Shown here in pieces: positions 36,201-38,594 of a stretch of DNA of 38,594 nt. The stretch is taken from the sequence record LN997803; one strand, given 5' to 3'. The position numbers are program-made. Each line of letters begins with the position of its first letter. The stretch's first letter is position 1. This DNA is from Escherichia phage phi467.

Positions 36201-38594
36201 ATCAGGTGCATTATTATCAAGATGATAATCTACAATAATAAGATCTGATTTTCTAATCCGATCCACATCGAAATTAACAGAACCATTGTCAACATCACAA
36301 ATCATATTTTTAGATTGAAAAAAGCTCTCAAGAGTAGCGGCTCGTTTAGATGAGTCAATTTTGTTGTAGTCTAAATCAACTTCGTTATTCAACGCCCTGA
36401 TTGATTCAGAATACGTCAGAAAATCGTCATCAATCATGACAACGGAACGAATTGCATTTTCGCAGAAAGTTTTCTGGACAAGAGAATTATAATTTGCCAC
36501 TGTCATATTAGAACTCCACTCCATTGAACTGGATCACAAAATTAGCGCCATCTTTTATTAAATAGTTATCGCCTTCATCAGGTTCTGAATACCATATTTT
36601 ATGATGTGCAACAGCAAGGTTTTCTCGACATAGATACAGACCTACCCCATGTCCATTTGCTCTTTTGCTATAAAATAGTTCAAATAGTCGCGGGATATCA
36701 TCGGTATCAATTGCCGGACCAGAATTTGCTATGATAACCAAAGAATTCACAAAACCAATCTTTATGAGCCTATTATTTGACAGACTGACCCAATACATTG
36801 CATTGTTGATAATATTAGTAAAAACAGGATAGATCCTTAATGGTATATCTGTTATTGCGATTTGCTTAAACTCTTCACTAAATTCAATAGTTATTCGTTG
36901 CCGTTCGAAACGCTCCCCAAAGAACTTCAGGACATAATCCATGATATTTTTTCCAGTTATTCTCTGCCTGGATTGATAACCTGATATTTTCAAAGGTGAT
37001 AAGAAACGTATTTGTTGAGTAAGCGATCTGTGAGCATTTAACGCCAATGAAAAACCAGGGTGTTCTTTTACAGAAGTAGGAAGAGAGTTTAGTCCTCTGG
37101 TTACCATAGAATCCATTTCTTCAAGTTCATGAGATATTATCTCAACACTAATACCTAACTGTGCAAGCGCGTTTAAACTTTTAGCTTTTTCTTCAAAATA
37201 TGAGCGTTCTTCTTCAGATAATGAGAATGCTGAATCTAAGTTTATACCTTCAAATAATCTATCGAGACCTTTTATTATTGATTGATATTTGAAAGTTAGG
37301 GTATCAACTGACTCAACATATAAACTATCGAGCAAATTAAACACATTTTCAATTTGTGAATCATTATCTATTGAATCAACAACTGATATAGTTTTAGCAT
37401 AATAATCACTTCGATCAACCTTTATTTCATCGGCCCATTTTTTTAAAAGAGAATGTATCTTCTCCTCTATCGTGTTATTAAACTTAGTTAGTTTAGAATT
37501 AATAATACCTTGATTTTTTTCAAGGTGATTTTTCGCTGACAATGAAGGCTCAAGTTTATTTAATTCAGAATCAAGTTTATTAATTGCTAACTTCATTTGT
37601 AGAATATACGCAGAGAACTCATTAAATTTATCTCTGTAGTCTCTATATTTCTCTTCATACATTCCAAGTTTTGGAGGTTTGATAGGCGTTTTAATTTCAC
37701 TGCGCAACGCATCTAAGTTTGTAAGATCACTGTCTATAATTTTAAGATAGTTTAAATCTAACGAACCATCAGTTTTATCAAGCTTAGTTTTCAGCCTTTT
37801 AACAGCCTCCAAGGAAGCATCAAGAACTGGTGTCTGATTCTTCAAAGCTTCTGAAAAACTTTTTTGTGTTGATTTTCGAGCTTGTTGTTGAGCAGATTTT
37901 CTTAACTCTTTTTCACGCTTAACTTGTTCTAAAAGCTCTTTACGGTCATCAGAACGTGAACCAAAAAATCTATCAGCAAGTTCAGTTAACAAATTAGATA
38001 TAATAGTTTTCAGTTCTCTTGCAGCCTGGTTTCTTATGAATCCCTCTCTCCCCGACTTATCTTTCAGCTCTTTATTACTGGATTGAGTAATTCCAATATA
38101 ACCAAAAATCCTTCTATTAGACCAATAATATCGCCCTGCATTCCATGAACGTCTTTCTTCTATCTGGAAGAAATCATTATCTACTCGACCATAAGGTAAT
38201 ACTCTCAAGCTATCCCTAAAAATCATTAGTCCTGCATACTTTTTGGCCTTAAGATCAAAGTGGGAATGTTCACGTTCAGTATGTGATGTATTTTGTGAAA
38301 GGAATTCAAACGTTCCTATCTGAAGCTCAAATGGGCCGACCCCTGCGTGATCCTACCCACGTAATATGGACACAGGCCTAAGCGAGGTTCTTGTTTTCAA
38401 ATTGTTCCGGACTGAGGCCGCCACACCAACTGTGCCGCCGCCACCGATTGTAATCACATTCGATATAATTAAACACCGTTGCCCGCATTATTTCCCGGCT
38501 GATAAAGTGTTCTCCATGGATACATTCCACTTTCAGCGAATGAAAGAAGCTTTCCACGCAGGCATTATCGTAGCAGCAACCTTTTGCGCTCATA

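What the first reader, a model, noticed from the sequence alone, without database searches (positions are those of the whole stretch)
38227..38594. IS3 end abuts the kinase-like gene; reading frame stays open to the IS boundary, suggesting 5' truncation
Upstream of the annotated ATG at 38226 the same frame has no stop for 40 codons ('...GPFELQIGTFEFLSQNTSHTEREHSHFDLKAKKYAGL-M') until the first IS3 nucleotides at 38348. The gene may have lost its N-terminus to the IS3 insertion, which would inactivate or rewire the module. Alternatively the ATG with its AGGA 6 nt upstream is the true start and the open frame is chance.
Basis: partly seen in the sequence, partly recalled or inferred. Interest (0 to 1): 0.5.

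Follow-up and report, generated by a model that had tools for sequence, protein, structure and literature searches.

The report
IS3-truncated kinase gene remnant
The "kinase-like gene" next to the IS3 end is the surviving 3' 62% of a 988-codon gene whose front part, together with its partner DNA-methylase gene, was lost in an IS3-bounded deletion; this is an ordinary pseudogene that databases still list as an intact protein.

Summary
The observation and the truncation reading are both confirmed. On the minus strand the frame of the 572-codon ORF (36508-38226) stays open for 40 more codons, up to the last IS3 base at 38348. Those 40 codons are identical to residues 377-416 of 988-aa homologues that are 99% identical overall. 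DNA homology to an intact locus stops exactly at the IS3 terminus, inside codon 376. The ATG at 38226 is therefore internal Met417, not a true start.

The lost part is an N-terminal GHKL (HATPase_c_3, paraMORC-type) ATPase module. The upstream C5-cytosine methyltransferase gene and the rest of the island are also gone.

In complete E. coli genomes the other IS3 end abuts a half-deleted ygaQ pseudogene. The flanks are TCT and CGC, so there is no target-site duplication. This is an IS3-bounded deletion, not a simple insertion.

About 560 of 5426 complete E. coli genomes carry the remnant; none carries the missing half. [quoted passage not shown] The event is routine. The annotation error and the uncharacterised parent system give it modest interest.

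The parts
38348..38594 (-). Right-hand 247 nt of IS3. It holds the 3' end of the transposase orfB (stop TAG at 38380-38378) and the right inverted repeat (about 38348-38387). The window ends inside the element.
   Evidence: Identical to the last 247 nt of the 1258-bp IS3 in E. coli E2865, whose inverted repeats match at 28 of 40 positions. RefSeq annotates it as 'IS3-like element IS3 family transposase'.
38347..38348 (-). Deletion and insertion junction. Homology to the intact gene begins at 38347, the third base of codon 376 (AAC). The A at 38348 could be either the IS3 terminal base or the second base of that codon.
   Evidence: DNA alignment with intact locus L002.
38227..38346 (-). 40 untranslatable leftover codons, equal to residues 377-416 of the 988-aa protein. 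They contain no in-frame start codon.
   Evidence: 100% identical to P0006 residues 377-416. No ATG, GTG or TTG in frame.
36508..38226 (-). The 572-codon ORF annotated as 'ATP-binding protein' (WP_000577251.1). It corresponds to residues 417-988 of the full-length paraMORC-type histidine-kinase-like protein, and its ATG is internal Met417.
36985..37161 (-). HEF_HK (DHp-like) domain. The conserved His-Glu lies in the motif SHELEE; the His codon CAT is at 37131-37129, equal to His782 of the full-length protein.
   Evidence: Pfam PF19191 scores 26.3 bits against a cutoff of 24.1. The motif is read directly from the sequence. The family is described in PMC8011034.
36568..36843 (-). C-terminal HATPase_c domain, the catalytic ATP-binding domain of the kinase core.
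   Evidence: Pfam PF02518 scores 44.6 bits against a cutoff of 26.4. Matches to solved sensor kinases ThkA and FixL.
34758..36506 (-). Intact partner gene of 582 aa. It has an N-terminal Response_reg_2 receiver domain (acidic pair D26/D27, predicted phospho-acceptor D93) and a roughly 400-aa output region of unknown function. Its start lies 1 nt after the kinase stop codon.
34270..34686 (+). 138-aa hypothetical ORF, probably a membrane protein, conserved in the island between the integrase and the receiver gene.
   Evidence: Present at the same position in intact loci L002 and L003 and in E. coli genomes. No significant family match.
32960..34231 (+). P4-type tyrosine integrase of the island. 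In the intact relatives the island sits next to smpB.
   Evidence: NCBIfam NF007246 scores 440 bits. L002 context: smpB, integrase, 138-aa ORF, receiver gene, kinase gene, methylase gene.
32816..38347 (.). The whole surviving island remnant (5.5 kb). It is 98.9% identical to the corresponding part of the intact island in L002.
   Evidence: blastn of window against L002.

Best explanation
The ORF at 36508-38226 (minus strand) is a 5'-truncated pseudogene.

Its parent gene encodes a 988-aa soluble protein with four parts: an N-terminal GHKL ATPase of the paraMORC type (HATPase_c_3), a long helical linker, a DHp-like HEF_HK domain and a C-terminal HATPase_c kinase domain. In other bacteria this gene sits in a three-gene cassette. 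A C5-cytosine DNA methyltransferase gene lies just upstream, overlapping the kinase start. A gene for a receiver (Response_reg_2) protein with a large output domain lies just downstream.

In an ancestor of many E. coli lineages, a deletion with IS3 at its edge removed a long stretch. The lost DNA covers codons 1-375 of the kinase gene, the methyltransferase gene, the rest of the island and chromosomal DNA up to the middle of ygaQ. Everything up to this point is shown.

Inferred steps. The deletion arose either by intramolecular IS3 transposition (adjacent deletion) or by recombination between two IS3 copies. In the intact system the methylase marks self DNA, the GHKL module is the input, and it drives autophosphorylation of the His in SHELEE. 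The phosphate passes to Asp93 of the receiver protein, which releases a toxic or restrictive output domain.

In this window the input module and the methylase are gone. The kinase core and receiver pair is most likely an inert, slowly decaying relic. Losing the methylase and the sensor in one step would explain why the loss was tolerated.
For: 1. Homology. The 612-codon open frame is 99% identical (606/612), without gaps, to residues 377-988 of 988-aa proteins from Serratia, Salmonella and Klebsiella. DNA identity of 98.9% to intact locus L002 ends at the IS3 terminus.

2. The lost part is a real domain: HATPase_c_3 at residues 28-137 of the intact protein. Its closest curated relative is the N-terminus of the BbrUII/HgiDII restriction enzymes (E = 1.5e-13).

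3. Full length is the rule. 79 of 80 species loci encode residues 1 to about 988. The only exception is this same E. coli remnant in a mis-binned contig.

4. Cassette conservation. A C5-methylase lies immediately upstream in 60 of 76 loci and within 5 kb in 73 of 76. The receiver gene lies immediately downstream in 71 of 75. The published linkage figure is 91.6% (PMC8011034).

5. Deletion rather than insertion. The far IS3 end abuts the 3' 1108 nt of the 2253-nt ygaQ pseudogene. The flanks are TCT and CGC. The methylase plus the 5' half of the kinase gene gives no match in any of 5426 complete E. coli genomes. The remnant is in 560-573 genomes, and the two IS3 junctions are in 485 and 502.

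6. Signs of decay. An IS600 insertion sits in the 120-nt leader of one strain. An IS3-family insertion at codon 454 of the receiver gene produces a common 453-aa allele. The kinase remnant differs from the intact copy by 4 synonymous and 6 non-synonymous changes, against 12 and 2 for the receiver gene.

7. A 572-aa homologue in K. pneumoniae is the downstream piece of a frameshifted full-length gene. ORF callers therefore default to this internal Met after any upstream break.
Against: The 572-codon ORF is still intact in most genomes and keeps an apparently complete kinase core: H-box SHELEE plus N, G1 and G2 boxes. The receiver gene in this window is also intact.

No terminator lies between IS3 orfB and the ORF, so read-through transcription and some translation from Met417 cannot be excluded.

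The published survey lists a 'group 2' architecture without HATPase_c_3 in 34 of 222 sequences, so short forms might be functional somewhere.

The substitution counts are small and not polarised.

Confidence: 0.93

Rival explanations
1. The ATG at 38226 with its AGGA is the genuine start of a naturally short kinase (HEF_HK plus HATPase_c, the published 'group 2' architecture), and the open frame upstream is chance.
For: A conserved Met occurs at this position in homologues (MIFRD or MVFRD). 572-aa entries exist in several species. A 'group 2' architecture is reported for 34 of 222 sequences. The chance of 40 open codons is not negligible, about 0.03-0.04.
Against: The 40 upstream codons are 100% identical to internal residues 377-416 of 988-aa proteins, and homology stops exactly at the IS3 end. 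79 of 80 species have the full-length gene. The one 572-aa entry from another species that could be inspected is a fragment of a frameshifted gene. AGGA is only 3 nt from the ATG and is simply the Gly-Leu codons.
Confidence: 0.02
2. IS3 simply inserted into the gene, with a 3-bp duplication. The 5' half and the methylase then lie intact on the other side of the element, and the system could revert by precise excision.
For: The window ends inside IS3, so the far side is not visible in the window itself.
Against: In complete genomes with an identical junction the far side is ygaQ' followed by glaH, lhgO and gabDTP. The flanks TCT and CGC are not a duplication. The 5' half plus the methylase is absent from all 5426 complete E. 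coli genomes.
Confidence: 0.02
3. The remnant is rewired rather than dead. Read-through from IS3 expresses a sensor-less, possibly constitutive kinase core. With the intact receiver protein it would form a working orphan phosphorelay, kept because it is useful, for example as a standalone toxin or abortive-infection module.
For: The kinase core motifs and the receiver gene are intact in this window. There is no terminator between orfB and the ORF. The pair is retained at 99.8-100% identity in about 560 genomes. The receiver gene shows 12 synonymous against 2 non-synonymous differences from the intact allele.
Against: High identity is expected from recent common descent alone. The receiver gene is broken by an IS in a very common allele (1605 against 1966 database members). 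Another IS sits in the leader of one strain. The kinase remnant carries relatively more non-synonymous changes. No promoter-like site above chance was found. The spacing between the Shine-Dalgarno-like AGGA and the ATG is poor.
Confidence: 0.08

Closest known systems
HEF_HK / Response_reg_2 two-component-like system linked to C5-methylases (Bellieny-Rabelo, Pretorius and Moleleki 2021, Genome Biol Evol, PMC8011034)
   Same: The window genes hit both defining Pfam models above threshold (PF19191, PF19192), lie adjacent and have the conserved His-Glu and receiver Asp residues. The 99%-identical intact relatives have the 'group 1' architecture (HATPase_c_3 + HEF_HK + HATPase_c) with a C5-methylase upstream.
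   Different: The window copy lacks HATPase_c_3 and the methylase because of an IS3-bounded deletion. It would be scored as 'group 2' but is a pseudogene. The family has been described only computationally, with no demonstrated function.
paraMORC GHKL ATPases of restriction-modification systems (Iyer, Abhiman and Aravind 2008, PMC2292703) and BbrUII/HgiDII-family restriction enzymes (NCBIfam NF050001)
   Same: The lost N-terminal module is a HATPase_c_3 GHKL domain. Its best curated match is the N-terminus of BbrUII/HgiDII restriction enzymes (E = 1.5e-13). Like paraMORCs it is operon-linked to a cytosine methylase.
   Different: The score is far below the family cutoff (50 against 550 bits), and only about 125 residues match. 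The C-terminal half is a histidine-kinase core rather than a nuclease, and no nuclease domain was identified in the cassette.
IS-mediated adjacent deletions, or recombination between IS copies, producing truncated genes without target-site duplication (general IS biology)
   Same: A single IS3 is flanked by two unrelated truncated genes. There is no 3-bp duplication, and tens of kilobases are missing relative to K-12-type and intact-island arrangements.
   Different: Nothing unusual. The two mechanisms cannot be told apart from the product.
Detocs, the defensive two-component system (Rousset et al. 2023, bioRxiv 10.1101/2023.01.24.525353)
   Same: The concept is the same: a cytoplasmic histidine kinase senses infection and phosphorylates a receiver-effector protein.
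   Different: No PADLOC model matched the kinase or the receiver protein. There is no buffer receiver gene. The sensor domain differs, the cassette includes a methylase, and the output domain differs. This is an analogy only.

Membership tests
IS3 (IS3 family insertion sequence) | Element of about 1258 bp with imperfect terminal inverted repeats beginning TGATC and orfA/orfB joined by a programmed frameshift | tested here: met
   The window's 247 nt equal the right end of a 1258-bp element in E2865. The inverted repeats match at 28 of 40 positions. RefSeq annotates 'IS3-like element IS3 family transposase; programmed frameshift'.
IS3 (IS3 family insertion sequence) | 3-bp target-site duplication flanking a simple insertion | tested here: not met
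   The flanks are TCT (ygaQ side) and CGC (kinase side). This is expected if the element bounds a deletion, and it does not argue against the element being IS3.
HEF_HK kinase-like family, group 1 (PMC8011034) | HEF_HK (DHp-like) domain with a core His followed by an acidic residue | tested here: met
   PF19191 scores 26.3 bits against a cutoff of 24.1. The motif is SHELEE, with the His codon at 37131-37129.
HEF_HK kinase-like family, group 1 (PMC8011034) | C-terminal HATPase_c domain | tested here: met
   PF02518 scores 44.6 bits against a cutoff of 26.4.
HEF_HK kinase-like family, group 1 (PMC8011034) | N-terminal HATPase_c_3 (paraMORC-type GHKL) domain | tested here: not met
   Absent from the window ORF. 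Present at residues 28-137 of the 99%-identical 988-aa homologue. It was lost by deletion, so the window gene is a truncated member rather than a different family.
HEF_HK kinase-like family, group 1 (PMC8011034) | Adjacent Response_reg_2 gene | tested here: met
   PF19192 scores 109 bits in the gene that starts 1 nt after the kinase stop. The receiver gene is immediately downstream in 71 of 75 species loci.
HEF_HK kinase-like family, group 1 (PMC8011034) | C5-cytosine methyltransferase gene upstream | tested here: not met
   Deleted here, where IS3 follows directly. Present and overlapping the kinase start in L002-L004 and L009. Immediately upstream in 60 of 76 species loci.
Two-component phosphorelay (functional sense) | ATP-dependent His autophosphorylation and transfer to the receiver Asp | not testable with these tools
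   [not shown]
Restriction-modification system | A nuclease, or other DNA-targeting effector, that is blocked by the cognate methylation | tested here: inconclusive
   No nuclease domain was detected in the kinase or receiver proteins by Pfam, PADLOC, NCBIfam or PDB sequence search. The only lead for the output domain is a MazF/CcdB-like fold.
MazF/CcdB/Kid toxin superfamily (output domain of the receiver protein) | SH3-like beta-barrel toxin fold with family sequence signature or catalytic residues | tested here: inconclusive
   [not shown]
Detocs and other catalogued anti-phage systems (PADLOC-DB 2.0) | Match to the system's protein models | tested here: not met
   No PADLOC hit for the truncated or the full-length kinase. 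The receiver protein gives only a spurious 14-16-bit hit. The methylase hits generic type II and Druantia methylase models.

The most novel reading that the evidence does not exclude
The parent cassette (C5-methylase, paraMORC-type kinase, receiver protein with a MazF/CcdB-like output domain) may be an uncharacterised immune system gated by a phosphorelay and aware of DNA methylation. The E. coli remnant would then be a natural 'disarmed' allele. The methylase could be lost only because the same deletion removed the GHKL sensor. That would make the sensor domain the step that licenses toxicity. Alternatively, the sensor-less kinase and receiver pair may still be expressed from IS3 read-through and retain some activity.
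Probability: 0.12. Interest if true: 0.6.

Novelty: new member of a known kind. Interest (0 to 1): 0.27.

Why it matters
1. Annotation. RefSeq protein WP_000577251.1 ('ATP-binding protein', 572 aa, thousands of database members) is a pseudogene fragment present in roughly a tenth of complete E. coli genomes. It should be flagged as such.

2. Comparative genomics. The short 'group 2' architecture reported for the HEF_HK family probably includes such fragments. Architecture-based evolutionary inferences need re-checking.

3. Biology. The parent three-gene cassette is widespread across phyla, tightly conserved and experimentally untouched. The E. coli remnant shows which parts can be lost together. 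That suggests a simple experiment: compare the intact operon with an N-terminal deletion, each with and without the methylase.

Otherwise the event is routine IS-driven genome decay.

Tried and rejected
- PADLOC models on the truncated kinase, the full-length kinase and the receiver protein gave no meaningful hit.
- Sequence search of the receiver protein against PDB found nothing. A profile search of the output-region alignment found only a marginal receiver hit.
- Foldseek of the output-domain model against PDB gave no match with E below 0.09. The afdb50 library was unavailable.
- The supplementary tables of PMC8011034 are not held. I therefore could not check whether the E. coli 572-aa protein is one of their 'group 2' sequences.
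- The 572-aa entries from Pectobacterium and Yersinia ruckeri (P0079, P0085) are not on record with contigs. Only the Klebsiella one could be inspected.
- The promoter and terminator scan of the junction found nothing above chance.
- A literature search for the RefSeq accessions returned nothing.
- The first translation was in the wrong frame and was not used.
- I considered that the IS3-less junctions in Logan contigs might be assembly artefacts or the ancestral state. I rejected both. A complete genome (O103 WL1467) shows such a scar. The scars also lack ygaQ bases that are contiguous in K-12-type genomes and present in the IS3-bearing form.

Full report
**Observation.** On the minus strand the window ends inside an IS3 copy. 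Its right inverted repeat (...CCATATTACGTGGGTAGGATCA) ends at 38348. These 247 nt are identical to the right end of a complete 1258-bp IS3 in E. coli E2865, whose inverted repeats match at 28 of 40 positions.

The annotated ORF runs from 38226 to 36508 and is 572 codons long. In its frame the nearest upstream stop is TAG at 38355-38353, inside the IS3 repeat. No ATG, GTG or TTG occurs in frame before 38226.

The AGGA is separated from the ATG by only 3 nt. Forty open codons in DNA of this composition would arise by chance with P of about 0.03-0.04. The open frame alone is therefore only suggestive.

**What it is.** A database search with the 612-codon open frame returned many 988-aa proteins from Salmonella, Klebsiella and Serratia. 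They are 99% identical over 100% of the query and carry an extra N-terminal HATPase_c_3 domain. BLASTP against one of them (P0006) aligns the query to residues 377-988 with 606/612 identities and no gaps. The 40 'upstream' codons are identical to residues 377-416, and the ATG at 38226 is Met417.

An intact locus (L002) is 98.9% identical to window 32816-38348 at the DNA level. The similarity ends at the IS3 terminus, inside codon 376 (AAC). The gene has therefore lost its first 375 codons plus one or two bases. The lost part contains the GHKL ATPase domain (PF13589, residues 28-137). Its closest curated relative is the N-terminus of the BbrUII/HgiDII restriction enzymes (E = 1.5e-13, far below the family cutoff).

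**It is a deletion, not a simple insertion.** In E2865 and strain 00_3305 the other IS3 end abuts an 'alpha-amylase C-terminal domain' pseudogene that is missing its N-terminus, followed by glaH, lhgO and gabDTP. In K-12-type genomes that pseudogene (ygaQ) is 2253 nt and is followed by tRNA-Ile, ypjC, a recombinase remnant and ypjA. Only 1108 nt of it remain next to IS3.

The three bases flanking IS3 are TCT and CGC, so there is no target-site duplication. The methylase gene plus the 5' half of the kinase gene of L002 finds no match in any of 5426 complete E. coli genomes. By contrast the remnant pair is present in 560-573 genomes at 99% identity or better. The right and left IS3 junctions are present in 485 and 502 genomes.

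One ancestral event thus removed everything from kinase codon 376, through the rest of the island and the neighbouring chromosome, to the middle of ygaQ. Whether it was an intramolecular IS3 transposition or recombination between two IS3 copies cannot be decided from the product.

**The parent system.** The intact island has this gene order: smpB, P4-type integrase, 138-aa ORF, then (on the opposite strand, converging on them) the operon methylase-kinase-receiver, followed by relaxase and further integrase genes. The C5-cytosine methylase gene (PF00145) overlaps the kinase start.

The window kinase fragment hits HEF_HK (PF19191) and HATPase_c. The downstream gene hits Response_reg_2 (PF19192, 109 bits). 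Both Pfam families were defined by Bellieny-Rabelo et al. 2021. That paper reported 91.6% linkage of the two genes, frequent upstream C5-methylases and a relationship to paraMORC ATPases, all by computation. ParaMORCs had earlier been placed in restriction-modification contexts by Iyer et al. 2008.

I checked this independently on 80 species-level loci spanning Proteobacteria, Acidobacteriota, Planctomycetota, Bacteroidota and others:
- 79 of 80 encode the full-length protein. The single exception (L017) is this same E. coli remnant on a 5.6-kb contig binned as 'Bacteroidales'.
- A C5-methylase lies immediately upstream in 60 of 76 loci and within 5 kb in 73 of 76.
- The receiver gene lies immediately downstream in 71 of 75.

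The 572-aa entries from other species are not evidence for a natural short form. The one that could be inspected (K. pneumoniae CP141543) is the downstream piece of a frameshifted full-length gene, called from the same internal Met.

**How it most likely works.** The architecture and gene linkage are shown. The rest is inferred:
- The methylase marks self DNA.
- The GHKL/paraMORC module is the input.
- It controls autophosphorylation of the His in SHELEE. This is His782 of the full protein, and its codon is at 37131-37129.
- The phosphate passes to Asp93 of the receiver protein and unleashes its output domain.

In this window the input module and the methylase are both missing. If the system behaves like a restriction-modification or toxin module, losing the methylase alone should be harmful. 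A single deletion that also removes the sensor would be tolerated, which fits what is seen.

**Is the remnant alive?** Four observations point to decay:
- An IS600 sits in the 120-nt leader of one strain.
- An IS3-family element interrupts the receiver gene after codon 454 in O103 WL1467 and in Logan contig L005. This gives the 453-aa allele, with 1605 database members against 1966 for the full-length form.
- IS3 itself has been lost imprecisely at least three times, leaving different scars.
- The kinase remnant differs from the intact allele by 4 synonymous and 6 non-synonymous changes, against 12 and 2 for the receiver gene. These numbers are small and not polarised.

Against complete death, the kinase core and the receiver gene are intact in this window. 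No terminator separates IS3 orfB from the ORF, although no promoter-like site beyond chance was found either. I put about 8% on a functional 'rewired' pair.

**Comparison with known systems.** The locus is a truncated member of the HEF_HK/Response_reg_2 family. It is related to paraMORC ATPases and is conceptually analogous to Detocs. It matches no catalogued defence system in PADLOC. No paper mentions the RefSeq accessions.

**Verdict.** It is refined to an IS3-bounded deletion that also removed the methylase. The event is ordinary IS-driven decay. Its modest interest has three sources. The first is a widespread mis-annotation: WP_000577251.1 is listed as an intact protein. The second is probable contamination of the published 'group 2' architecture by such fragments. 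The third is the pointer to a conserved, experimentally uncharacterised methylase-kinase-receiver cassette.

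Noticed in passing
L005:6006-6030, L006:5974-6015, L091:1785-1810 (equivalent to window 38347 and beyond): Three different IS3-less scars join ygaQ' directly to the kinase remnant. They read ...GGTTTTCCC|GCAGGGG, ...GAGATG-CG-CGCAGGGG and ...CCCATTCA|GGGGTCGG. One of them is in a complete O103 genome. The scars lack ygaQ bases that the IS3-bearing form retains, so IS3 was lost imprecisely at least three separate times after the original deletion.
   Followed up: partly
Receiver gene, window about 35145 (codon 454); L005:9221 onward; L091:5001-6311: In many E. 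coli (O103 WL1467, Logan contig L005) an IS3-family element is inserted after codon 454 of the receiver gene. Its end reads TGAACCGCCCCGG... and it carries an annotated ALIL pseudoknot. The result is the 453-aa 'partial' protein P0129 (1605 database members). In this window the gene is intact.
   Followed up: partly
L010:2667-3823 (equivalent to window 38227-38346): In strain 00_3305 an IS600 copy sits between IS3 and the ATG of the 572-aa ORF, inside the 120-nt leftover leader. A second IS600 truncates the island integrase.
   Followed up: no
L001:8055-9217 (IS3 transposase; only its last 216 nt are in the window, 38378-38593): In E2865 and 00_3305 the IS3 copy at this junction is annotated with an internal stop in the transposase (TAG at L001 about 8814). 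The element bounding the deletion is therefore itself probably dead.
   Followed up: no
[not shown]
   Followed up: partly
L017 (DAIPZW010000118.1, 5603 nt): A contig assigned to a 'Bacteroidales' metagenome-assembled genome carries this exact E. coli remnant. It is 99% identical, and the match starts 53 nt from the contig end, consistent with a break at the IS3 repeat. This is almost certainly a binning error.
   Followed up: no
L009:3734-6719 (K. pneumoniae CP141543.1): The homologous kinase gene is split by a frameshift near codon 303-305 into a 314-aa piece and a 572-aa piece, each annotated as a separate protein. This could be a sequencing error or a second independent inactivation.
   Followed up: partly
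window 15051-15204 (minus strand): Adjacent tRNA-Gly(TCC) and tRNA-Thr(TGT) genes lie inside what looks like prophage DNA occupying most of the window (about 1-32800).
   Followed up: no
window 30113-31314 (plus strand): Two ORFs of 160 and 202 aa cover the position where E2865 (L001:16283-17458) has a single 391-aa integrase with an Arm DNA-binding domain. The window is only about 98% identical to E2865 over 29487-38594, so this second integrase may be disrupted here.
   Followed up: no
window 37131-36839 (kinase residue 503 of the 612-codon frame): The window allele has Leu (TTA) in the motif DIPLRIYPV. The intact homologue L002 and the E. coli remnants L005 and L006 have Ser (TCA). This is a lineage-specific non-synonymous change just upstream of the N-box.
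   Followed up: no
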